A stretch of DNA of 64,000 nt from Nitrososphaeria archaeon (GCA_027078545.1 JALWXN010000004.1:352001-416000); one strand, 5' to 3'. Positions 39,445-52,012 are shown, counted from the stretch's first letter. Numbers and translations are program-made. The notes: a model not told the origin generated them from the letters alone.

Positions 39445-40368
39445 ATGGATGACTCCCTCGAGTCCCTAGAGACTATGCTTATGAATGGCTATGTCTCCCC
39501 CGATCTACGGGAGGAGATCCTCCGTATAGGCTACCGTGTGAAGGAGGAGTTCCTCAGGTATCTGTATGAGGTCCCAATATCCTCCTCCCGGCTTAGGAAG
39601 GCTGTTCTACACCTGGCTGGGAGGGGTAAGTTCGTCAGGGGGATATTTACATATGTCTTTGCTAGGGCCCTTGGTGTTGATGAGGATAGGGCTATTATCC
39701 TGGCCGTCTCTACTGAGCTATACCACCTCGCCAGCCTGATCCACGACGACATTATAGATGGGGCTGGGTATAGGAGGGGGGTGGAGACTGTACATAGGAG
39801 GTTTGGCCTGGAGTATGCCATAATCGCGGGGGATCTCCTCATAGTCTATAGCAACCTCCTCCTATCACGGCTTGGGTGTAGGGTGATAAGTATCTATGCC
39901 TATGAGGGGGTCCGTCTAGCTGATGGCGAGGCCCTGGAGCTGGATATGGGGGCTATAAGGGATCTCGAGTCTTACTACCGTGTGATCGACCTGAAGACCT
40001 CCAGTGTCTTCGTGGCTATGCTGGAGTCCTCAGCAGTGTTGGCGGGTATGGATGATATGCTTGACCGGGTGAGGGACCTGGCTAGGGAGGTGGGCTACGC
40101 CTTCCAGATTGGTGATGACATCCTCGATGTGGTGGGTAACTCGTCGGTTACGGGTAAGGATACTGGTATGGATGTGGATGGGATCAATATCGTCAACATA
40201 TTCTTGAGGCAGGGCCTCAGTCCTGAGGAGGCTGTGGCGAGGGCTAGGGAGCTTCTCAGGAGGCATGTTGAGAGTGCCCTCTCGATGCTCAGGCTTTTTA
40301 GGCTTGAGGAGGGTTATACCCGTATATTGACCGCCCTTATCAGGAGCCTGGAGGTCAGGAGGCTATGA
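39445..40368 (+). CDS. Polyprenyl diphosphate synthase (GGPP synthase family)
   Basis: GKFVR, SLIHDDIID..RRG, LKT, FQIGDDILD, GKD. Confidence 0.92.
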   Translation: MDDSLESLETMLMNGYVSPDLREEILRIGYRVKEEFLRYLYEVPISSSRLRKAVLHLAGRGKFVRGIFTYVFARALGVDEDRAIILAVSTELYHLASLIHDDIIDGAGYRRGVETVHRRFGLEYAIIAGDLLIVYSNLLLSRLGCRVISIYAYEGVRLADGEALELDMGAIRDLESYYRVIDLKTSSVFVAMLESSAVLAGMDDMLDRVRDLAREVGYAFQIGDDILDVVGNSSVTGKDTGMDVDGINIVNIFLRQGLSPEEAVARARELLRRHVESALSMLRLFRLEEGYTRILTALIRSLEVRRL

Positions 40369-42194
40369 TTCCCCGGGCAGATATAGAGTCTATCCCATAT
40401 GTAGTGGGTCTCGCCGTCCTTATGCTCTACATCTATCTTCTACAGGTCTATGACGTTAGGAAGCGGTTTATAGAGTATCTTGGCCTAGTCCTCCTGGTTC
40501 TCGGCTCATTGGTTCCTGTGGGCTTCACCCTGTATAACCTGTGGAGCTTCAACCTGGAGTATAGCTATGTATTTAGCTATACCTACTCGGGTATGGAGCC
40601 GTTTGATAGGGCTGTTACCTCCCTATTCTCCATGCCTTGGGACGTGGCTATGCTGGCTGGGGTTTCGCTCTACATCGTGCTGAGGATACTCCTGTCGGGC
40701 TCCATGTATAGATCTGCCGTGAGGTCCGCATTATCGGCGTACCTCTTCTCACTCATGCCTCTCCTACTCGTCCCCATATTCTACCCCCCATTCGAGATCT
40801 ATGAGGATCTCGTGGCCCTGGATGGTATGGGGCTCCACCCCGTGGGTATAGATGGGGTGTTCCTCCTCGAGGCTGTATTGACGTATGTGGTTGTGGCTCT
40901 ACTCCTGGGGGCTGGGGGTCTAGGCCTGTATCTATGGAGGAACCCTGTGGATAGGGTCTACAGGGTCTCGAACACCCTTCTATACCTCGGGATATTCCTC
41001 GTTGCCCTCCTATACTTCCTGAGGATCTGGTTCAACCTCGTCTTTGGGGGTAGGGACAACTTCCTCAACTACACGAGTGTTGATGTGGCTATACTAACCC
41101 TCCTGGCCTCCTCCCTACTAGCCTATCAGGTTAGGCGGATAGCTGGTACGCGTGTCATTGGGGCTTCTGCCGTGGCTTCCTACCTGGTGGTGCTCTCTGC
41201 TATACTGCTTGTAGCGACCATCCATCCCGACGCCTTCTTCCCGTATAACAGTGTCTTGAACACGGGTGTCTACCTGGCTGTTCTCCTCTCCACCCTCTTC
41301 GTGGCGTCGTTCCCCGTTGGTAGGGAGATCTTTAGGAGGAGCTTCCTCCCATGGTTTAGTGAGAAGATGGAGGTCATGGTTAGGAGTGGCTCCGCCCTCC
41401 TCCTACTAGTCATCTCGGGGGCCTTCCTGATAGTCCTATTCAACCTCAGTATCTACTCCACCTTTGGTGAGGGCCTAGTAAGGATCTCAGAGGACTTCCT
41501 GGTCTCATCGGTCTTCCTACTCTCGATCTACCCGATGATCTCGATGATCGGTGAGTTGATAGCGCGTAGGTTCAACTCTATCAACGGCGTCATATTCGGG
41601 GTCTTCGGGATATACGCTGTCTTCGCCGGGGGCTTCAACAATAATATCTGGATTATCAGGGACTATGCCCCATACTTCTTCGTAGCCTCGATCCCGATAG
41701 GGATATTCCTGGGGTGGAGGTATAGGCACTACCCTGTGGCTAGGATCCTATTCTCACTCCTCTTCGGCCTACTACTCATTACCCAGGCCTTCTTCGTCAA
41801 GGGCCCGGCAACCGATGTTACTCAGGAGGAGCCGCTCGCCCTGGATGGGTTTACACTTAGGAATCCCAGCTTCAACGTAACCATTGTTAACGAGACTGTC
41901 TATCTAGAGCCGGGGTCCAACGAGTCTGTTGAGATGCTTAGTATTGAGGAGGCCCGTTTCGATGGTGGTGTTGTCCTGAGGAGATACTCCTTCAACGCTA
42001 GGGAGATAAGGTTTAGCCAAAATCTCCTCGTCGACTCCCCTCCATACATGTATGTCGTGGGGATGATAACGGGGAGTGAGGATAGGGTCTCGGTATATGC
42101 CTCGGAGGCTCTCTGGACTAGGGTCCTCTACCTCTTGATGCCCCTACTCCTCGTGGCCTATCTATACCTCGCCAGGAGGTTTGAGAGGTACTAG
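40365..42194 (+). CDS. Large polytopic membrane protein, divergent CcmF-like
   Basis: ~14-15 TM; FNLEYSYVFSY and PF..DGMGLHP match CcmF landmarks, but HPP and the Trp-rich WWD motif are absent. Confidence 0.55.
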   Translation: MIPRADIESIPYVVGLAVLMLYIYLLQVYDVRKRFIEYLGLVLLVLGSLVPVGFTLYNLWSFNLEYSYVFSYTYSGMEPFDRAVTSLFSMPWDVAMLAGVSLYIVLRILLSGSMYRSAVRSALSAYLFSLMPLLLVPIFYPPFEIYEDLVALDGMGLHPVGIDGVFLLEAVLTYVVVALLLGAGGLGLYLWRNPVDRVYRVSNTLLYLGIFLVALLYFLRIWFNLVFGGRDNFLNYTSVDVAILTLLASSLLAYQVRRIAGTRVIGASAVASYLVVLSAILLVATIHPDAFFPYNSVLNTGVYLAVLLSTLFVASFPVGREIFRRSFLPWFSEKMEVMVRSGSALLLLVISGAFLIVLFNLSIYSTFGEGLVRISEDFLVSSVFLLSIYPMISMIGELIARRFNSINGVIFGVFGIYAVFAGGFNNNIWIIRDYAPYFFVASIPIGIFLGWRYRHYPVARILFSLLFGLLLITQAFFVKGPATDVTQEEPLALDGFTLRNPSFNVTIVNETVYLEPGSNESVEMLSIEEARFDGGVVLRRYSFNAREIRFSQNLLVDSPPYMYVVGMITGSEDRVSVYASEALWTRVLYLLMPLLLVAYLYLARRFERY

Positions 42195-45404: not shown

Positions 45405-46283
45405 ATGATGAGGATAAGTTTCTACTCGGGTGAGAGCCTAGGCACCCGTGGAATGGCCACCCTCGTGGAGACCCGTGGACTGAGGATATTCATCGATCCA
45501 GGTGTGGCCCTGGGGCCTAGGAGGTATGGCCTCCCACCCCATAGGCTGGAGCTTGAGGCTAAGGAGGAGCAGTGGAGACGGATAGTGGAGGCCGCCTCGA
45601 GGGCCGATGTGGTTGTGGTTACACATTATCATTACGACCATCACAACCCGTGGAGCTCTGTGGCGGAGGTATATGGGGATAAGGATGTCTATATCAAGGA
45701 TTATCAGAACAATATTAATCCCAGCCAGATCAGGAGGAGTAGGTTCTTCCTCCATAGGCTTGAGGAGGAGGGTGTGGATATCTCCCGTGTAAGGGTGGCG
45801 GACAATAGTAGTGTGGAGTATGGAGGGGTTAGGATAGTCTTCAGCCCACCCTTCTACCACGGCGACTCACCCAAGCTAGGCTATGTGGTGATGGTCCTGG
45901 TGGATGATGGTGATAGGAGGCTCCTCTACACCAGTGATGTGGAGGGCCCCATGTATAGTGAGCCCCTGAGATACATCCTCTCCACCGAGGCGGATATAGT
46001 GGTGCTTGACGGGCCCCCTACATATCTGGCGAGCTATGACGAGTCGGTGATTGGGGAGGCCCTACGGAATGTCTCGCTCATCCTTAGGCAGGAGTGGCTA
46101 GAGACGCTTATCCTTGAGCACCACTTCCTGAGGGATAAGAGGTATGGGGAGTATCTATCGATGATCGAGGGGTATGGAGAGTATGGATACAAGGTTATGT
46201 GCTTCGCCGAGTATATGGGGTGGGAGCCCAGGTTTTTAGAGATGTATCGTGACGAGTTATATAGTGGGGAGGGTGGAGAGTAA
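45405..46283 (+). CDS. UPF0282-type metallo-beta-lactamase-fold hydrolase
   Basis: ESLGTR, IDPGVALGPRRYGLPP, THYHYDHH, HG, SDVEG, HHFLRD. Confidence 0.88.
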   Translation: MMRISFYSGESLGTRGMATLVETRGLRIFIDPGVALGPRRYGLPPHRLELEAKEEQWRRIVEAASRADVVVVTHYHYDHHNPWSSVAEVYGDKDVYIKDYQNNINPSQIRRSRFFLHRLEEEGVDISRVRVADNSSVEYGGVRIVFSPPFYHGDSPKLGYVVMVLVDDGDRRLLYTSDVEGPMYSEPLRYILSTEADIVVLDGPPTYLASYDESVIGEALRNVSLILRQEWLETLILEHHFLRDKRYGEYLSMIEGYGEYGYKVMCFAEYMGWEPRFLEMYRDELYSGEGGE

Positions 46284-46285
46284 CT

Positions 46286-48019
46286 GTGACCTATGTCAAG
46301 GAGGTCATCCTAGAGAACTTCATGTCCTATGAATATGCCCGTATACCCCTCTCCAGGGGCCTAAACATAATAACTGGGCCCAACGGGGCGGGTAAGTCTA
46401 CCATACTCCTAGGCATATCTATAGCCATGGGTCAGAGCCATACGGAGAGGGGTAGGAGGCTCTCAGACCTTATAAGGATAGGTAGGGATGTGGCCAGGGT
46501 CTCGATAGTTCTCGACAATAGGGAGGTGGATGGGCGCCGACCATTCCCGGGGATCAGGTCTGACGAGGTTGTCTTCACCAGGATTATCAGGAGTGATGGG
46601 AACTATCTTTATGAGGTTAACTATAGGGCCTCCTCCAAGGCCGAGGTTAGGTATCTCCTCGGCTCGGTGGGCATCAATCCTGACAATATACTCATCATAA
46701 TGCATCAGAACATGATCGAGAGCTTCAACTTCATCGATAGTAGGGAGAAGGTTAAGCTGTTTGAGGAGGCCCTGGGGATCTCGGGCCTGAGGAGTAGGAT
46801 TGTGGAGGCTAGGGAACGGCTGGCCAGGATAGCTAGTGAGGAGGAGGCTGTTAGGAGGCGTTTCCGGGACGTGGAGAGCCTTATGGAGAAGTGGAGGGAG
46901 ATGTATAGGAGGTGGGAGGAGAAGAGGGGCCTGATCAATGAGCTGAGCCGTCTAGAGGCTATGTATGCATGGGGCAGGGTCAGGAATATGGAGGCCGAGC
47001 TGAACAGCCTGAGGGATCTCGAGAGTAGGCTGAGGGACGAGAAGGCAGGTCTCGAGGAGGAGGTCTCGAGGCTTAGGCTCAGCCTCAGGGAGCTGGAGGA
47101 GGATCTTAAGCATCTCTACGCCGTGGTTAGGGACTCCTTCAGGGAGCCCGGTGGGAATCCAGGCCTTATAGACGAGTTGATAGGTAGGATTGATGGGCTG
47201 AGGCTTAGGTATGGCGATCTCAGGGCTTCTGAGGCGGTGAAGACCTATAGGATCGAGGTGTTGGAGAGGGAGCTCCATGAGCTTGGGGAGAGGATTAGGA
47301 GGGCTGAGGGGGAGGCGAGGCTACTGAGGATGGAGGCCTCACGATACCCGGAGATATATCCTGAGAAGCCCCTCTCAGAGATCCTCGGGGAGATAAGGGC
47401 GGTGAAGAAGATGTTGGAGAAGTACGGCGATGTAGATGAGACTGCCGCTGCCTCCTACGAGTATTACAGGAGGCTCTATGAGGAGTATAGGGAGAGGCTT
47501 GAGGAGATTGTTGAGAATAGGGATCGGCTGTATAAGGAGCTGGAGAGGCGTGTCAAGAGGTGGAGGGAGGAGCTTGAGAAGTACGTCTCACGGGTCTCCG
47601 ACGAGTTTAACAGGATCCTAGCCAGGTTCGGGGCAACCGGCTATGCCAGGCTGGAGGATCCGGAGGATATTGAGACGGCCCGTCTAGAGATATATGTAGG
47701 CTATGGAGGGGCCACGCCTACGCTACTCGACGCCTATAGGCAGAGTGGTGGTGAGCGTACAGTTGCTGCGATGGCCTTCCTCCTAGCTATGCAGAGGCTC
47801 GTCAAGTCTCCCTTCAGGGCTGTCGACGAGTTCGATGTCCATATGGATCCTAGGAATAGGGCTAGGGTGATGGAGCTCCTCATGGAGTATATGTCGAGTG
47901 TGGGTGGGCAGTACCTAGTCATCACCCCCGGCTATATAGGGGACTATGTCCGTGACGCCCACGTCATAGTTGTCCAGAAGGTTGAGGGTAGGTCTGGGGT
48001 GGCGCTCTACAGTGAGTAG
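46286..48019 (+). CDS. Short SMC-family ATPase (Smc5/6-like head, no evident hinge)
   Basis: LENFMSY, GPNGAGKS, Q-loop MHQ, QSGGE, PFRAVDEFDVHMD, LVITP; ~270-aa coiled coil. Confidence 0.92.
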   Translation: MTYVKEVILENFMSYEYARIPLSRGLNIITGPNGAGKSTILLGISIAMGQSHTERGRRLSDLIRIGRDVARVSIVLDNREVDGRRPFPGIRSDEVVFTRIIRSDGNYLYEVNYRASSKAEVRYLLGSVGINPDNILIIMHQNMIESFNFIDSREKVKLFEEALGISGLRSRIVEARERLARIASEEEAVRRRFRDVESLMEKWREMYRRWEEKRGLINELSRLEAMYAWGRVRNMEAELNSLRDLESRLRDEKAGLEEEVSRLRLSLRELEEDLKHLYAVVRDSFREPGGNPGLIDELIGRIDGLRLRYGDLRASEAVKTYRIEVLERELHELGERIRRAEGEARLLRMEASRYPEIYPEKPLSEILGEIRAVKKMLEKYGDVDETAAASYEYYRRLYEEYRERLEEIVENRDRLYKELERRVKRWREELEKYVSRVSDEFNRILARFGATGYARLEDPEDIETARLEIYVGYGGATPTLLDAYRQSGGERTVAAMAFLLAMQRLVKSPFRAVDEFDVHMDPRNRARVMELLMEYMSSVGGQYLVITPGYIGDYVRDAHVIVVQKVEGRSGVALYSE

Positions 48020-48713
48020 GGAGGAGATATATGGCAGGATAGTGGATCTAGCGGCTAGGGTGGCGCGTGGGGAGCTCGACCCGCTGGAGGTTGAGATATC
48101 CACCCTCCTGGCGAGGATTGAGGAGGTGGATATTGAGAGGCTCCCAGTAGAGGTTTTTAGGCAGGATGTGGAGGCTATACATGGCCTCGCCCTTATCCTA
48201 GCTATGCAGAAGGATAGGATAAAGGCGTCGCTGGAGGGTCTGAGCCTCGACGCTCTGCTGGTTAAGACTATCATCCTCTCCCTGGGGGTGGAGGAGCTGG
48301 CGGACCTGTTGAGGGCTATACATAGGCCTGTCGCCGAGGTCTCGGTGATGACTGAGGAGTATCTTGCGGAGGCCCTGGCCTACTTCAGATCCGTGGTGAG
48401 GCCTGGCGGTCTGGTTGGTGGGGAGCCTGTGGAGGTTGAGCCGGAGGTCTTCCCCGAGGAGGATATTAGGCGTGACATGGAGGAGATGTGGAGGCGCCTC
48501 CTGGAGGAGTATGGTGAGGAGTGGATATCCTATGACGAGGTGGTTGGGGGCGATGTCTATAGGGCCTACCTGGTGAGCCACCTGGTTACCGAGGGTTATA
48601 TGGATATGAGGATGGACCGTGTGGCTGGAGAGGCATATTTACGTCCCCTTAGGAGGCGTCGGGAGCTCCGTAACCCGGCCTCTCTACCGGTGGTGGTTAG
48701 GCGTGGAGGGTGA
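48012..48713 (+). CDS. Kleisin (ScpA/Nse4-like)
   Basis: N-terminal IVDLAARVARGELDPLEV and C-terminal WH AYLVSHLVTEGYMDMRMDRVAGEAYL; GTG start overlaps the SMC stop. Confidence 0.75.
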   Translation: MSREEIYGRIVDLAARVARGELDPLEVEISTLLARIEEVDIERLPVEVFRQDVEAIHGLALILAMQKDRIKASLEGLSLDALLVKTIILSLGVEELADLLRAIHRPVAEVSVMTEEYLAEALAYFRSVVRPGGLVGGEPVEVEPEVFPEEDIRRDMEEMWRRLLEEYGEEWISYDEVVGGDVYRAYLVSHLVTEGYMDMRMDRVAGEAYLRPLRRRRELRNPASLPVVVRRGG

Positions 48714-49269
48714 TAGGAAGCTTCTTAGGGCTGCATATCTACTCCTCGTGAGGCGTAGGAGGTATCCGGGGGTTAGGGAGTGGGAGCTTGAGAAGTATCT
48801 GGGTAGGAATTATAGGGAGGTCCTGGATAGGCTTGGGGAGGAGCTGTCTAGGTTTGGCCTCGAGGTTAGGGAGGTCGTCCTGAAGGAGGGTGGTAGGGAG
48901 GTTAGACACTTCGTCGTAGTACCCGCTAGGACGGCTGTCCATATGGAGCTTGGTGTACCACCCTTCAGGGTTGACGAGGCGGCTGTACTTGCACTGGCTA
49001 TATCCATGATACTTGCGAGTAGTGGTGGCCGGGTCAAGAGGTCCGAGGTCGTGGAGCTGGCTAAGACGAAGCTCCCCGAGTATAGGGTTGAGCGTGCCCT
49101 GAACAAGTTTGTCAGGCTTGGGTATCTGAAGGAGGAGGATGACGACCTGCTGCTAGGCCTGAGGACGTATCTCGAGATGGATCTCGATAGGTTGGCGGCT
49201 ATCCTCGCCGGGAGGGCCGAAGCCTCTCGGCTAGGCGGCGACGCTTCAGCTCGAGAAGGATCTGGGTGA
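48703..49269 (+). CDS. KITE tandem winged-helix protein (Nse1/Nse3-MAGE/ScpB-like)
   Basis: Two WH units; LALAISMIL..GGRV, LNKFVRLGYL, LGLRTYLE similar to Nse1/MAGE GPR..E. Confidence 0.72.
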   Translation: MEGDRKLLRAAYLLLVRRRRYPGVREWELEKYLGRNYREVLDRLGEELSRFGLEVREVVLKEGGREVRHFVVVPARTAVHMELGVPPFRVDEAAVLALAISMILASSGGRVKRSEVVELAKTKLPEYRVERALNKFVRLGYLKEEDDDLLLGLRTYLEMDLDRLAAILAGRAEASRLGGDASAREGSG

Positions 49270-52012
49270 GCCTATCCCCTATCCTAGGCTCCTTCCTCAG
49301 GGCCTCCTCGATGTCGCTCAGTGTTAGTCCCCCCACTACATAGGCGTATATGCCTGGCTTGCCATACCTCCTGTATAGCCTGGAGGTCCTCCTGAGCTCC
49401 CTAAGTATCCTCCCACCCGTCCTCCCCATCCTAGCCATCTCGAGCTCCCTCATCGTCTCGGAGGGTCTCTCCCTGGTTATGCCTACCTCGTCTGAGCCGC
49501 AGACTGGGCAGTGGGGCTGCTCGGGGAGCTCCAACACCCTGGTCTCAACTATGTATTCGCCGCAGGTGAGGCATGCAATCGTTACATATGTCGCTAGGGC
49601 CCTGGCCCTGGTGGCTATCACCTCTAGTAGCTGGTACCTCGGCTTTCTAGGCCCCTCCATGGGGATGTCGCTATACCTGACATACTCCGTCGTCATCCTG
49701 GAGAGGTGTCCGGGGTAGGCTACTAGCCTAATCCCTCCACTGGCTATACCGCGGAGTATCTTCCCAGCCCCTCCCAGGTCGTGGTCCCTCTTCAGGCTCT
49801 CCCTCAGGGCCTCTAGGTATGGTGGCCTACCCCTGTTGTGCTCGATCATGGTGTCGATGAGTTTCTGGGTTATCTCGGCCTCACGTGTTATGAGGCCCAT
49901 CCTCTTCGCGACGTTTAGGAATCTCCACCTGAATATACTGGTTCTGGGGGCGGCCTCCCTCAGAGCCCTCTCTATGTCCCCCGGGTTCCTGAGTATGTCT
50001 ATCACGTGCTCCGGCTCTATGAAGGGGCTCTCAAGTATTATCCTATACTGGTCTGATGAGTGTCTAGCCTGTATAGAGTATCTCTCCTCAAGCTCGTGTA
50101 CCATGTAGGTCTCCAGCGTCCTGTTAGTGTTTGTCCCTCCCAGTATGTTGACGACCAGCCTCGGCCCGTCGGACTCGATGGTTATAACGTCGTCGCTGGG
50201 TATCTCGTAGCCGCTGCCCAGCTCCTCGGCGAATATCTCCAGTGCATGGCTCACCGTCTCAGGGTCTATTGAGTATTCCCTGGATATCGTATCAACAGCC
50301 TCCCTATAGCCAGCCTCTCTATACACTTCTCTGAAGAGCCTTAGTAGCCTCCCCACCTCCTGGGCTATCTCGTAGGGTACTGGTATCTCCTCCCCTATCC
50401 AGTCTGGCACTGCCCCTATAGGGTCGTCCTCGGGCTTGACGAAGACCTTCTCCCCATATATCTGTAGGATCCGCCACGGCCTCCCAGCCAGGATTATCTT
50501 TGTACCCTCCTCCCCAGCCACGGCTAGGAACTCGTCGTCTAGGACGCCTACTATCTTTCCCGATGTGTCGTCGACGACGGGGTACTGCTTGATATCGGGT
50601 ATCATGGATAGGTTCTCGAAGTAGTATCGGTAGAGCCTCTTATGATCCCCTATCTTCAGGGCGTCTCCATCGACCCTCCATATCCTCGTCGCCTCGGCTA
50701 TATACTCCAGGGTCTCCACCAGCTCCTCTATTGATAGGTCTCTATAGTAGACTATGTTTCTCAGGAGCTGGTGTAGCATGGCTATGCTCAGCCTCTTCTC
50801 ACTTATGAGGATCCCCGCCACCTCGTGGACTAGGACGTCTAGGGGCTTGTCTAGGAAGTATATGTCCTCCACCCTCCTGGCGTAGGCGTGGCTCCTGATG
50901 GAGAATGATTCTAGGGCGTCGTAGGGGTCTATAGCCACTATCTCGCCTCTACTCACCTCCTCTATCCAGTGTCCAGCCCTGCCTATCCTCTGTATGAGCT
51001 TCGATACCTGTCGGGGTGAGCCGTACTGGATCACGTATTTTATGTCGCCTATGTCTATCCCCAGCTCCAGGGAGGATGTCGCTACTATCGCCTCTAGCAC
51101 CCCTTTCTTGTAGAGCTCCTCCACCCTTATCCTATACTCCGTACCTATGGAGCTGTGGTGCACAGCTGTCTTCATCTCTTGGGAGTATAGGAGTAGCCTG
51201 TTCCCCAGTATCTCGGCCATGGGCCTGGTGTTGGTGAATATGAGGGTCTTACCCACCTCCCTGATCCTCCCGACTATGTGTCTAACCCTTGCCGCCACTG
51301 CTGGGTATGTATAGAGCTTCTCGGCCAGCTCTACATCCCTCCTGGTGGGCTGTGGATATGATATCCCGACCTCGATCCTCTTCTCCAGGTCGGCCCTGAC
51401 ATAGATACCCTCGCCGTCCAGGCCTGTTATGTACTTCAGGGCCTCCTCGGGATTACCTATGGTTGCTGATAGGCCTATTACCTGTAGATCCCCCTTCCTG
51501 AGCCTCCTAAGCCTCTCGAGGGCTATGGAGAGCTGTACCCCACGCTTGCTGGGTATGAGCTCGTGTAGCTCGTCGACGACTACCCATCTCGCCCTGGCTA
51601 GGTATTGGGAGAAGGTCTTCGTGTTTAGGAGGTATGTGAAGGTCTCGGGCGTGGTGACGAGTATGTCGGGCGGGTTTAGGCCCTGCCTCCTCCTCTCCCT
51701 CTGGGGGGTGTCGCTATGCCTGACGGATATTGAGAGGTCTAGGCGTGAGGCCCACCATATAAGCCTATCAATTATGTCTCTGTTGAGGCTCTTCAGCGGG
51801 GTTATGTAGACTACCTGTATAGGCTCTCCAGGCTCCCTAACCAGCCTGTCGAGTATCGGTATGAATGCGGCCTCGGTCTTCCCACTCCCGGTTGGGGCTA
51901 GTATTAACGTGTCCCTACCGCCTAGGATATGTGGGAGCGCCAGTCTCTGGGGCTCGGTAAGCCTCTCGAAACCCCTCTCCCTTATCAGCCTCTCTATCCT
52001 AGGGTCTAGCAT
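49199..52012 (-). CDS. lhr: Lhr-family SF2 DEAH helicase with C-terminal Zn finger
   Basis: APTGSGKT, TTPET, DELH, KRG, SAT, SSLELGID, QRIGRAGH, P.W.GE, CxxC..CPxC. Confidence 0.93.
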   Translation of the reverse strand: MLDPRIERLIRERGFERLTEPQRLALPHILGGRDTLILAPTGSGKTEAAFIPILDRLVREPGEPIQVVYITPLKSLNRDIIDRLIWWASRLDLSISVRHSDTPQRERRRQGLNPPDILVTTPETFTYLLNTKTFSQYLARARWVVVDELHELIPSKRGVQLSIALERLRRLRKGDLQVIGLSATIGNPEEALKYITGLDGEGIYVRADLEKRIEVGISYPQPTRRDVELAEKLYTYPAVAARVRHIVGRIREVGKTLIFTNTRPMAEILGNRLLLYSQEMKTAVHHSSIGTEYRIRVEELYKKGVLEAIVATSSLELGIDIGDIKYVIQYGSPRQVSKLIQRIGRAGHWIEEVSRGEIVAIDPYDALESFSIRSHAYARRVEDIYFLDKPLDVLVHEVAGILISEKRLSIAMLHQLLRNIVYYRDLSIEELVETLEYIAEATRIWRVDGDALKIGDHKRLYRYYFENLSMIPDIKQYPVVDDTSGKIVGVLDDEFLAVAGEEGTKIILAGRPWRILQIYGEKVFVKPEDDPIGAVPDWIGEEIPVPYEIAQEVGRLLRLFREVYREAGYREAVDTISREYSIDPETVSHALEIFAEELGSGYEIPSDDVITIESDGPRLVVNILGGTNTNRTLETYMVHELEERYSIQARHSSDQYRIILESPFIEPEHVIDILRNPGDIERALREAAPRTSIFRWRFLNVAKRMGLITREAEITQKLIDTMIEHNRGRPPYLEALRESLKRDHDLGGAGKILRGIASGGIRLVAYPGHLSRMTTEYVRYSDIPMEGPRKPRYQLLEVIATRARALATYVTIACLTCGEYIVETRVLELPEQPHCPVCGSDEVGITRERPSETMRELEMARMGRTGGRILRELRRTSRLYRRYGKPGIYAYVVGGLTLSDIEEALRKEPRIGDRLTQILLELKRRRLAERLRPSRRG

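What the first reader, a model, noticed from the sequence alone, without database searches (positions are those of the whole stretch)
45405..49269. Minimal Smc5/6-like complex operon: hinge-less half-size SMC, kleisin, Nse1/3-like KITE and an upstream MBL hydrolase
Seen: four co-oriented genes with a 2-nt gap or overlapping stops/starts. The 577-aa ATPase has complete ABC head motifs (LENFMSY, GPNGAGKS, QSGGE, PFRAVDEFDVHMD). Its ~270-aa coiled coil has no room for a ~150-aa hinge and no Rad50 CxxC hook, only a short break (FREPGGNPG). Known: PFR..DEFDV.MD and QSGGE are Smc5/Smc6-like rather than condensin SMC or Rad50 signatures. Archaeal Smc5/6 relatives (coalescin ClsN, arcadin-4) exist, and kleisin plus KITE partners define Smc-ScpAB, MukBEF, Wadjet and Smc5/6. 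Inference: this is a complete but miniaturised SMC-kleisin-KITE machine that must dimerise without a canonical hinge. It may organise the chromosome or sense foreign DNA, and it bears on the origin of eukaryotic Smc5/6-Nse1/3/4.
Basis: partly seen in the sequence, partly recalled or inferred. Interest (0 to 1): 0.88.

Follow-up and report, generated by a model that had tools for sequence, protein, structure and literature searches.

The report
Hinge-less archaeal Smc5/6-like SMC operon
This archaeal operon encodes a relative of the eukaryotic Smc5/6 chromosome-maintenance complex (SMC ATPase, kleisin, kite); such operons are already described, but this SMC is half-size with no hinge or zinc hook, which the papers I could read do not mention.

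Summary
Four co-oriented, abutting genes encode an MBL-fold hydrolase, a 577-aa SMC ATPase, a kleisin and a kite.

- **SMC placement:** the head groups with eukaryotic Smc5/Smc6, apart from canonical SMC (support 99/99), and carries their motifs (PFR..DEFDV.MD, QSGGE, ITP in place of the H-loop His).
- **Partners:** the kite profile hits human Nse1 and an Nse3/MAGE chain. The kleisin model's best fold matches are kleisins.
- **Architecture:** the AlphaFold model is head, about 120-residue antiparallel coiled coil with a joint, and a 5-residue turn. There is no hinge and no cysteine.
- **Not a recent deletion:** SMC-kleisin-kite order is kept in 20/20 sampled genomes. All listed complete frames in 154/301 genomes of the phylum are 551-774 aa.
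- **Relatives:** an Asgard relative keeps a hinge. Rare 1016-1071-aa relatives, one cluster with a Bathyarchaeota-labelled member, carry a mid-arm CxxC.
- **MBL gene:** adjacent only in the window's own family.
- **Dimer:** a fold of two arms supports, but does not show, pairing at a conserved distal-arm motif.
- **Prior work:** SMC5/6-related SMC-kleisin-kite operons in TACK/Asgard archaea are published (Yoshinaga & Inagaki 2021; van Hooff et al. preprint). The text I could read does not mention hinge loss.

Another window of this scan noted the same stretch. Verdict: known kind, new architectural variant.

The parts
45405..46283 (+). MBL-fold hydrolase of the PRK04286 family (called UPF0282 in an earlier scan note). 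It is first in the gene string but is only a lineage-specific neighbour, not a core subunit.
   Evidence: Pfam Lactamase_B_2 at E 4.8e-8. NCBIfam PRK04286 models at 188-238 bits, below their cut-offs. It is adjacent to the SMC gene in the window's own family, where 13/13 genomes carry it. In other families it lies on other contigs or 26-600 kb away, and it was not found in family f4, which does have the SMC.
46286..48019 (+). SMC5/6-related SMC ATPase, 577 aa, with no hinge and no zinc hook
   Evidence: SMC_N at E 2.9e-33. The best PDB sequence hit is yeast Smc5 at 1.7e-33, against Rad50 at 1e-7. Head tree. AF2 model with pLDDT 87.
46286..46780 (+). N-terminal half of the ATPase head (res 1-165): Walker A GPNGAGKS, Q-loop Q141
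46781..47143 (+). Ascending arm helix (res 166-286)
   Evidence: A single helix 166-286 in the AF2 model
47144..47158 (+). Apex: a 5-residue turn (EPGGN) where a hinge or hook would be. This is the only place where family members differ in length (5-110 residues).
47105..47251 (+). Predicted homodimer interface (res 274-322), including the conserved motif Y309-[VG]-D-x-R-[VA]-x-E-A-V-x-x-[YF]321-[KR]
47339..47440 (+). Joint-like interruption of the descending helix (res 352-385)
   Evidence: The best Foldseek hit is 5xei, a Pyrococcus Smc head with coiled coil and joint (E 2.7e-26, TM 0.63/0.69). Its length is fixed at 34-35 residues in 46 homologues.
47624..48016 (+). C-terminal half of the head (res 447-577): signature QSGGE, Walker B/D-loop PFRAVDEFDVHMD, ITP in place of the H-loop His
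48012..48713 (+). Kleisin (Nse4/ScpA-like), 233 aa: N-terminal helical domain (res 1-104), poorly modelled linker, C-terminal winged helix (res 147-219)
   Evidence: Profile against PDB: ScpA N-domain 6ivh_A at E 0.01, ScpA C-WHD 4i99_C at 0.1, EID3/Nse4 9lwi_D at 0.12. Nse4_C is the commonest Pfam hit among members (3/19). AF2 model. Foldseek. VIA Z 8.6 to 4i99_C. It lies between the SMC and kite genes in 20/20 loci.
48703..49269 (+). Nse1/Nse3-like kite, 188 aa (tandem winged-helix type is inferred; no structure was predicted)
   Evidence: Profile against PDB: human Nse1 5hvq_C at E 5.3e-4, 9lwi_F at 6.1e-4, MAGE-domain chain 7dg2_C at 1.6e-3. Pfam SMC_Nse1 in 6/23 members and MAGE in 2/23, all below threshold. 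The nearest named ESM Atlas clusters are MAGE 0.84 and DUF4194/MksE 0.78 (leads only).

Best explanation
Genes 2-4 encode the archaeal 'SMC5/6-related' SMC complex. It runs in parallel with the cell's canonical Smc-ScpAB and Mre11-Rad50. It consists of a homodimeric SMC ATPase, an Nse4/ScpA-like kleisin and an Nse1/3-like kite. By analogy with Smc-ScpAB the stoichiometry is probably 2:1:2. Unlike every characterised SMC-kleisin-kite complex, the SMC subunit has no hinge and no zinc hook. Each arm is about 120 residues of antiparallel coiled coil (roughly 18 nm, about a third of a canonical arm), with a joint, closed by a 5-residue turn.

Shown here: the family assignment, the hinge-less fold prediction, conservation of the short form and of the gene triad, and intact ATPase motifs.

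Inferred: two SMC chains are held together by ATP-engaged heads, by the kleisin bridging neck and cap, and by an in-register side-by-side contact of the distal arms at a conserved motif (res 309-322). That would give a short rod. ATP binding would clamp DNA on the heads with the kleisin and kites. The complex would then act as a chromosomal DNA clamp, tether or short-step translocase in genome maintenance or repair, rather than as a large-loop extruder. The MBL gene is a co-transcribed neighbour in one family only.
For: - **Family assignment.** The best PDB sequence hits are Smc5 at 1.7e-33 and Smc6 at 1.3e-25, with archaeal Smc at 3e-31 and Rad50 at only 1e-7. In the careful head tree, the clan of this family, eukaryotic Smc5 and putative Smc6 rows splits from canonical SMC with 99/99 support, and the inner clade has 100/98. 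The motifs PFRxxDEFDVxMD, QSGGE and ITP are shared with the Smc5 and putative Smc6 rows, whereas canonical SMC has PFYxFDEIDAHLD and ITH/ISL.
- **Partners.** The triad is conserved in 20/20 loci.
- **Architecture.** The AF2 model has pLDDT 87 and shows helix 166-286, turn 287-291, helix 292-351, joint 352-385 and helix 386-446. The top fold hit is an Smc head with joint, 5xei. There is no CxxC in 120 homologues or in the short representatives. All length variation is at the apex.
- **Conservation.** 58/121 genomes of the class and 154/301 of the phylum carry it, and the pattern is near all-or-none by family. All listed complete frames are 551-774 aa.
- **Second complex.** The genome also has a canonical Smc of 1139 aa, followed by a 214-aa ORF and ScpB, plus Mre11-Rad50.
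- **ATPase residues.** They are invariant across 46 homologues.
- **Arm dimer.** Folding two copies of res 166-446 gave a score of 0.66, against 0.00 for the best of 3 controls. That mark was reached by 20 of 30 proteins solved as pairs of one chain and by 1 of 23 solved as single chains. The runs agree in at least 81% of contacts and partner pLDDT is at least 84. My own alignment was used, so the counts hold only roughly. The model supports binding but does not show it. The interface coincides with the most conserved part of the distal arm.
- **Literature.** Such operons are described in TACK and Asgard archaea (10.1101/2024.01.07.573240; PMC8665677).
Against: - There is no experimental datum on this family.
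- No kite structure was predicted, and its sequence matches are weak (E 5e-4 at best; Pfam hits are below threshold).
- The kleisin Foldseek E-values are all above 1e-3. Its winged helix scores only about 1 Z unit above generic winged helices.
- The arm-dimer prediction may come from the model's memory of solved SMC rod structures. Coiled coils are sticky, and the conserved motif could instead bind another partner.
- Function is inferred only from homology and gene context.
- The best PADLOC hits (mad3 at 115 bits, LmuB at 84 bits) show that short SMC-like ATPases also serve in defence.
Confidence: 0.8

Rival explanations
1. Same complex, but with no arm-arm dimerisation. The two SMC chains meet only through ATP-engaged heads and the bridging kleisin. 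The arms are free levers or docking sites, and the machine is a pure ATP-gated DNA clamp that never forms an SMC ring.
For: The apex is a variable 5-110-residue stretch with no conserved dimerisation module. RecF-type SMC-like ATPases dimerise by heads alone (established knowledge). The arm-dimer score is only a model's confidence.
Against: The distal arm carries a conserved motif with small residues and an invariant aromatic at position 321. The predicted interface falls exactly there, with a score of 0.66 against 0.00 for the controls. Arm lengths between head, joint and motif are fixed to the residue in 46 homologues, which suggests a structural register constraint.
Confidence: 0.3
2. An anti-plasmid or anti-virus defence system of the Lamassu/Wadjet type, in which the short SMC senses foreign DNA and the upstream MBL hydrolase is the nuclease effector.
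For: PADLOC hits to mad3 (E 1.7e-33) and LmuB (E 3e-24). LmuB is also a short SMC-like ATPase of about 600 aa (the PADLOC LmuB profiles are 605-611 positions). The MBL gene abuts the SMC gene with a 2-nt gap. Eukaryotic Smc5/6 restricts viral DNA (PMC10586767).
Against: The MBL gene is adjacent only in the window's own family. In other families its orthologue sits elsewhere, and it was not found in family f4, which has the SMC. Distribution is near all-or-none by family (f1 13/13, f9 15/17, f19 24/25, f27 18/18, f6 0/55), and the gene is single-copy in all but one sampled genome, with conserved order. That looks like vertical inheritance, not a defence island. The neighbours are housekeeping genes: 2-hydroxyacid dehydrogenase, radical SAM, NAD kinase and Lhr. 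The kleisin and kite have no PADLOC hit. The PADLOC scores are at or below those to Smc5 (119 bits) and well below SMC_prok_A (189 bits).
Confidence: 0.1
3. A member of the hinge-less archaeal ASRP (ClsN/Sph) or Rad50/arcadin-4 lineages rather than of SMC proper.
For: Its size (about 600 aa) is similar to the ASRP model length of 593. There is a weak NCBIfam ASRP hit (80 bits) and Rad50 hits (78 bits).
Against: The ASRP score of 80 is far below the cut-off of 300, and SMC_prok_A scores 189. There is no CxxC hook, which most ASRPs and Rad50 carry. The tree puts it with Smc5/6. Kleisin and kite partners are present, whereas the ASRP survey found no consensus in flanking genes. Rad50 with Mre11 is elsewhere in the genome.
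Confidence: 0.03
4. An assembly artefact, or a recently truncated and decaying SMC paralogue.
For: The genome is a draft in 11 contigs with 92% completeness.
Against: The same architecture is found in hundreds of independent assemblies, some of them single-contig genomes. Head motifs are invariant. Domain segment lengths are identical across 46 homologues.
Confidence: 0.01

Closest known systems
Archaeal 'SMC5/6-related' SMC-kleisin-kite complexes (Yoshinaga & Inagaki 2021, PMC8665677; van Hooff et al., bioRxiv 10.1101/2024.01.07.573240)
   Same: Same family by head phylogeny, by Nse4-like kleisin and Nse1/3-like kite neighbours, by TACK distribution and by coexistence with a canonical SMC operon. 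Their Table S3 lists Geothermarchaeales JdFR-13; the closest named homologue here (57% identity) is labelled Geothermarchaeota.
   Different: Nothing differs in kind. However, the main text of neither paper, nor the held supplements of the preprint (zero occurrences of 'hinge'), mentions that these SMCs are half-size and lack a hinge. The supplements of PMC8665677 are not held.
Eukaryotic Smc5/6-Nse1-Nse3-Nse4
   Same: Homologous ATPase head (PFR..DE motif, QSGGE, TP instead of the H-loop His), kleisin and kite.
   Different: Differences seen here: eukaryotic Smc5/Smc6 are 1013-1328 aa, and SMC_hinge is detected in two of the three putative Smc6 rows (one above Pfam's cut-off). This protein is a single 577-aa gene, so it is presumably a homodimer with one kite gene. 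From the preprint: eukaryotes have Smc5/Smc6 heterodimers, two kites, a RING on Nse1, plus Nse2 and Nse5/6.
Canonical Smc-ScpA-ScpB
   Same: Same three-part logic and gene order. The best fold match of the SMC model is a Pyrococcus Smc head with joint. The kleisin C-WHD matches ScpA-C best.
   Different: This is a separate paralogous set: the genome has its own 1139-aa Smc, a 214-aa ORF and ScpB. The canonical form has a hinge (PF06470) and, from general knowledge, arms of roughly 300 residues or more.
ASRP family (coalescin ClsN, Sph1/2)
   Same: Archaeal, about 600 aa, hinge-less SMC-superfamily ATPases.
   Different: ASRPs carry a CxxC zinc hook and form a separate clade. The ASRP survey found no consensus in flanking genes (PMC9389158). 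The NCBIfam ASRP cut-off is not reached here (80 against 300).
Lamassu LmuB, RecN, Rad50 (hinge-less SMC-like ATPases)
   Same: Short or hook-ended coiled coils. LmuB HMM hit at E 3e-24.
   Different: They belong to different clans. They have effector or nuclease partners instead of a kleisin plus kite of Nse type, and Lamassu has a patchy defence-island distribution (general knowledge).
'Hinge-less' SMC variants of marine Actinobacteria (PMC12153180)
   Same: SMC proteins predicted to lack the hinge.
   Different: Those are bacterial and branch with actinobacterial canonical SMC, and the passages I read do not mention partner genes. It is an independent case.

Membership tests
Archaeal SMC5/6-related SMC complex | ATPase head groups with eukaryotic Smc5/Smc6, not with canonical SMC | tested here: met
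   IQ-TREE LG+C20+F+G4, 61 heads by 307 columns: the split has 99/99 support and the inner clade 100/98. Smc5 is the top PDB hit. Shared motifs.
Archaeal SMC5/6-related SMC complex | Adjacent Nse4-related kleisin | tested here: met
   The gene sits between SMC and kite in 20/20 loci. The top Foldseek hits lie in SMC-complex entries, with a chain of the Smc5/6 entry 7qcd first at E 1.4e-3. ScpA-C Z 8.6. Nse4_C is the commonest Pfam hit, though below threshold. Whether it is closer to Nse4 or to ScpA is not resolved.
Archaeal SMC5/6-related SMC complex | Adjacent Nse1/3-like (not ScpB-like) kite | tested here: met
   The profile hits human Nse1 at 5.3e-4 and a MAGE-domain chain at 1.6e-3, and ScpB was not among the 6 chains listed at E up to 10. 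The genome's ScpB is a different gene at C4:60425-60910.
Archaeal SMC5/6-related SMC complex | Coexists with a separate condensin/cohesin-related SMC operon | tested here: met
Canonical SMC protein (architecture) | Central hinge dimerisation domain (PF06470) | tested here: not met
   No Pfam hinge hit. The AF2 model shows a 5-residue turn at the apex. Only 281 residues lie between the head halves, and all are helical apart from the turn and the two joint loops.
Canonical SMC protein (architecture) | Bipartite ABC head with Walker A, Q-loop, signature and Walker B, joined by an antiparallel coiled coil | tested here: met
ASRP (ClsN/Sph) | NCBIfam NF045487 above its cut-off; CxxC zinc hook in mid-arm | tested here: not met
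   80 bits against a cut-off of 300. Zero cysteines.
Rad50/SbcC | Zinc hook; Mre11 partner; Rad50-type head | tested here: not met
   No CxxC. Rad50 models score at most 78 bits against cut-offs of 700 or more. The genome's Mre11-Rad50 is at C4:1082020-1085651.
Lamassu (LmuA-LmuB-LmuC) | LmuB-type ATPase with an LmuA effector and LmuC in one cassette | tested here: inconclusive
   LmuB HMM at 84 bits, with no curated cut-off. The neighbours have no PADLOC hit. The vertical, family-wide distribution argues against it.
Wadjet/MksBEFG | JetC/MukB-like ATPase with JetA, JetB and the JetD nuclease | tested here: not met
   JetC HMMs match only the P-loop at 26-37 bits, and none of the other three proteins has any PADLOC hit. 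The Atlas similarity of the kite to MksE (0.78) is a lead only.

The most novel reading that the evidence does not exclude
In the Thermoproteota sampled here, the Smc5/6-lineage SMC lost the hinge, while an Asgard relative and, on weaker evidence, the putative Smc6 rows kept it. The lineage still works as a complete SMC-kleisin-kite machine. Its two 18-nm arms would be zipped by a conserved distal-arm motif. That would make it a natural minimal SMC motor, showing that neither a hinge nor a hook is needed for the core activity of this lineage. One branch, with a Bathyarchaeota-labelled member, would have re-elongated the arm and gained a Rad50-like CxxC hook.
Probability: 0.45. Interest if true: 0.8.

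Novelty: new variant of a known kind. Interest (0 to 1): 0.62.

Why it matters
Models of SMC action (ring entrapment, segment capture, loop extrusion) give the hinge and long arms central roles. If it is functional, a conserved SMC-kleisin-kite complex with 120-residue arms and no hinge is a natural deletion experiment.

It is also a practical reagent. It has about 1,000 residues of unique sequence, comes from thermophiles, and its SMC is naturally cysteine-free, which suits cross-linking, cryo-EM and single-molecule work.

For evolution, it refines the published picture of an SMC5/6-related complex in the TACK/Asgard ancestor. The TACK versions sampled here are derived hinge-less forms, so hinge-bearing Asgard versions are the better proxies for the ancestor of eukaryotic Smc5/6.

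Tried and rejected
Synteny was obtained instead with the genome search and the fetch from genomes.
- The single genome-contig scan was swamped by the P-loop pattern. It gave only two family members, L029 (Thermofilales) and L030.
- Pfam ScpA (PF02616) found nothing in the window's own genome, which is 92% complete. A 214-aa ORF nevertheless sits between the canonical Smc and ScpB.
- Pfam and NCBIfam gave no hit for the kleisin as a single sequence.
- Foldseek gave no kleisin match at E <= 1e-3.
- Sequencing runs: no RNA holder was listed, and read laying was not used.
- The supplements of PMC8665677 are not held. I therefore could not confirm by accession that this family is their 'SMC5/6-related aSMC'; that rests on taxon range, tree position and partners.
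- Rejected readings: misassembly or recent deletion, ASRP or Rad50 membership, and the MBL hydrolase as a dedicated effector.
- The labels 'Smc6-like' for P0343, P0352 and P0366, and 'Nse4', 'Brn1' or 'RAD21' for chains 7qcd_F, 7tve_G, 7q2y_C and 6wge_C, rest on my knowledge of those entries and on Pfam or length. No tool named them.

Full report
**Observation.** The + strand carries four abutting ORFs.
- 45405-46283: 292 aa.
- 46286-48019: 577 aa.
- 48012-48713: 233 aa.
- 48703-49269: 188 aa.

There is a 2-nt gap and then overlaps of 8 and 11 nt. The internal GTG starts at 48012 and 48703 match the N-termini of orthologues. The 577-aa protein contains no cysteine at all.

**The ATPase.**
- Pfam gives SMC_N at E 2.9e-33.
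- NCBIfam scores are highest for SMC_prok_A (189 bits), far below its cut-off. The ASRP model scores 80 bits against a cut-off of 300, and Rad50 models score at most 78 bits.
- Against PDB sequences the best hits are yeast Smc5 (1.7e-33). Next come Pyrococcus Smc (3e-31), Smc6 (1.3e-25) and human Smc5/Smc6, with Rad50 at only 1e-7.

I built a head-only alignment of 61 proteins and 307 columns. It held 16 short family members and 7 long relatives. It also held 11 named eukaryotic Smc5 and unlabelled representatives. Canonical archaeal and bacterial SMC were included, together with the genome's own Smc and Rad50.

The careful IQ-TREE run (LG+C20+F+G4) gave these results:
- The canonical SMC rows and Rad50 are separated from a clan that holds this family, Smc5 and three putative Smc6 rows, with 99/99 support. 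One of the three is from the choanoflagellate Salpingoeca, and two of the three show a weak or moderate SMC_hinge hit.
- The inner clade has 100/98 support.
- The archaeal short and long forms plus P0300 have 97/92 support.

PFRxxDEFDVxMD, QSGGE and ITP (no H-loop histidine) are shared with the Smc5 and putative Smc6 rows. Canonical SMC reads PFYxFDEIDAHLD and ITH or ISL.

**Architecture.** AlphaFold2 with a 46-sequence alignment gave mean pLDDT 87. The model consists of:
- head halves at residues 1-165 and 447-577;
- one helix at 166-286;
- a 5-residue turn at 287-291;
- a helix at 292-351;
- a joint-like break at 352-385;
- a helix at 386-446.

There is no globular apex. The best Foldseek match is 5xei, a Pyrococcus Smc head with coiled coil and joint (E 2.7e-26, TM 0.63/0.69). 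The protein therefore looks like an SMC cut off about 60 residues beyond the joint. At roughly 0.15 nm per residue the arm is about 18 nm.

In 46 homologues the segment lengths are fixed: 165/61/60 residues, then the turn, then 60/35/61. All length variation (5-110 residues) lies at the turn and looks like extra coiled coil. No CxxC occurs in 120 close homologues or in about 55 representatives of 500 aa or more clustered at 50% identity.

**Is it a recent loss or an artefact? No.**
- In 121 genomes of the window's class, 58 carry the gene. Frames are 566-730 aa apart from a few contig-end fragments and one 787-aa frame.
- The pattern is near all-or-none by family: f1 13/13, f9 15/17, f7 9/10, f4 8/9 and f6 0/55.
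- In 301 genomes of the phylum, 154 carry it (124 of 263 high-quality genomes).
- Every listed complete frame is 551-774 aa.

A search restricted to longer proteins found only about 20 clusters of 1016-1071 aa at 362-418 bits. They lack a Pfam hinge. They carry an invariant C-x-x-C-G-S...Q-W at mid-length, which is a Rad50-like hook. One cluster includes a protein labelled Bathyarchaeota. In the tree they are monophyletic (100/100) and nested among short forms (94/88), so they look like a secondary elongation.

Deeper in the Smc5/6 clan sits an 835-aa protein of the Asgard 'Ca. Freyarchaeum deiterrae'. It has a clear SMC_hinge hit at E 4.6e-11. The hinge was therefore most likely lost on the branch leading to the Thermoproteota forms.

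**Partners.** I cut 20 loci from genomes across the class.
- The SMC gene is followed by a 234-281-aa gene and a 178-204-aa gene in all 20, usually overlapping.
- *Kite.* Its profile hits human Nse1 (5hvq_C at E 5.3e-4, 9lwi_F at 6.1e-4) and a MAGE-domain chain (7dg2_C at 1.6e-3).
  - SMC_Nse1 is the commonest Pfam hit among members, but only 6 of 23 and below threshold.
  - The nearest named ESM Atlas clusters are MAGE and DUF4194/MksE (leads only).
- *Kleisin sequence evidence.* Its profile weakly hits the ScpA N-domain (6ivh_A at E 0.01), ScpA C-WHD (4i99_C at 0.1) and EID3/Nse4 (9lwi_D at 0.12). Nse4_C is its commonest Pfam hit, in 3 of 19 members.
- *Kleisin model.* The AF2 model has pLDDT 75, with confident N- and C-terminal domains and a poorly modelled linker.
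  - Its ten best Foldseek hits all lie in Smc5/6, condensin or cohesin entries. They appear to be the kleisin chains of those entries. The chain names come from my own knowledge, except for the small co-crystal chains, whose titles say so.
  - Every E-value is above 1e-3.
  - VIA-align ranks ScpA C-WHD first (4i99_C, Z 8.6, rmsd 2.3 Å over 63 of 70 residues). Generic winged helices follow at Z 7-8.

**Second complex.** The genome also encodes a canonical Smc of 1139 aa, followed by a 214-aa ORF and ScpB. It also encodes Mre11-Rad50. That matches the published 'two SMC complexes' pattern.

**The MBL gene.** It belongs to the PRK04286 family, which an earlier scan note calls UPF0282.
- It abuts the SMC gene in the window's own family, where 13/13 genomes carry it.
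- In families f5, f7, f8 and f9 its orthologue lies on other contigs or 26-600 kb away.
- It was not found in f4, which has the SMC.

It is therefore a lineage-specific operon neighbour, not a core part or a dedicated effector.

**Dimerisation.** Two copies of the arm (residues 166-446, with alignment A1) were folded with controls.
- The score was 0.66, against 0.00 for the best of 3 controls.
- That mark was reached by 20 of 30 proteins solved as pairs of one chain and by 1 of 23 solved as single chains.
- The runs agree in at least 81% of contacts, and partner pLDDT is at least 84.
- My own alignment was used, so the counts hold only roughly.
- The model supports binding but does not show it, and it may draw on solved SMC rods.

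The interface covers residues 274-322, and the contacts are in register (302:302, 306:306, 313:313, 317:317, 321:321). The arms therefore lie side by side and parallel, as in the SMC rod state.

The interface covers the best-conserved stretch of the distal arm: Y309 (31/46), R/K313 (37/46), E316 (27/46), A317 (27/46), V/L/I318 (46/46), Y/F321 (46/46) and K/R322 (36/46). The motif sits at a fixed distance from the head, not from the apex.

**Function.** Several points favour a housekeeping role in genome maintenance over defence.
- Distribution is family-wide and looks vertical.
- The gene is single-copy in all but one sampled genome.
- The flanks are housekeeping genes: 2-hydroxyacid dehydrogenase, radical SAM and NAD kinase.
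- The kleisin and kite have no PADLOC hit.

An Lhr-type helicase lies tail-to-tail directly downstream here (49199-52012, minus strand). It does so in 11 of 20 sampled loci from three families, which hints at a repair link. The PADLOC hits of the ATPase (mad3 at 115 bits, LmuB at 84 bits) show only general SMC likeness.

**Prior knowledge.**
- Yoshinaga & Inagaki (PMC8665677) defined 'SMC5/6-related aSMC', mostly in TACK metagenomes.
- van Hooff et al. (10.1101/2024.01.07.573240) showed SMC5/6-related SMC, Nse4-related kleisin and Nse1/3-like kite genes co-localised in TACK and Asgard genomes. Their table includes Geothermarchaeales.
- Their main text mentions the hinge only in general descriptions of SMC architecture, and their held supplements never use the word.
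- ASRPs (ClsN, Sph) are a different clade that bears a hook.
- Hinge-less SMC variants have been reported only for marine Actinobacteria (PMC12153180).

**Verdict.** The locus is a member of a known kind. What appears new is its conserved architecture without hinge or hook, the hook-bearing long sister forms, and the inference that these are derived states.

Noticed in passing
window 49199-52012 (- strand): A 937-aa Lhr-type helicase (DEAD, Helicase_C, WH_Lhr, DEAD_assoc) converges on the kite gene and overlaps its 3' end by 71 nt. The same tail-to-tail Lhr neighbour is present in 11 of 20 sampled loci from three families (f1, f8, f4). This could reflect a functional link to DNA repair or simply retained gene order.
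   Followed up: partly
proteins P0133-P0152, P0285 (alignment A4); not in the window: Relatives of 1016-1071 aa from the same SMC5/6-related family carry an invariant mid-arm C-x-x-C-G-S...Q-W, a Rad50-like zinc hook, and no Pfam hinge. One cluster includes a protein labelled Bathyarchaeota. This is a hook on an SMC-clan protein that falls outside ASRP by the NCBIfam cut-off (104 against 300).
   Followed up: partly
G000:C4:56396-60910 (outside the window): The genome's canonical Smc (1139 aa) sits on a very long branch (about 1.8-2.0 changes per column). Its presumed kleisin, a 214-aa ORF between Smc and ScpB, is not recognised by Pfam SMC_ScpA. The canonical complex in this lineage appears to evolve fast.
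   Followed up: no
G030:C17:18055-19713 and G030:C36:8186-9847: One genome of the class has two full-length copies of the short SMC on different contigs, both at about E 1e-121. This could be a duplication or a mixed bin.
   Followed up: no
protein P0317 (WXG40904.1, Ca. Freyarchaeum deiterrae): An Asgard member of the Smc5/6 clan is only 835 aa but keeps a clear SMC_hinge domain (res 341-452). It is an intermediate-length form with a hinge.
   Followed up: partly
window 40365-42194 (+): A 609-aa ORF upstream has no Pfam hit at E <= 1e-3.
   Followed up: no
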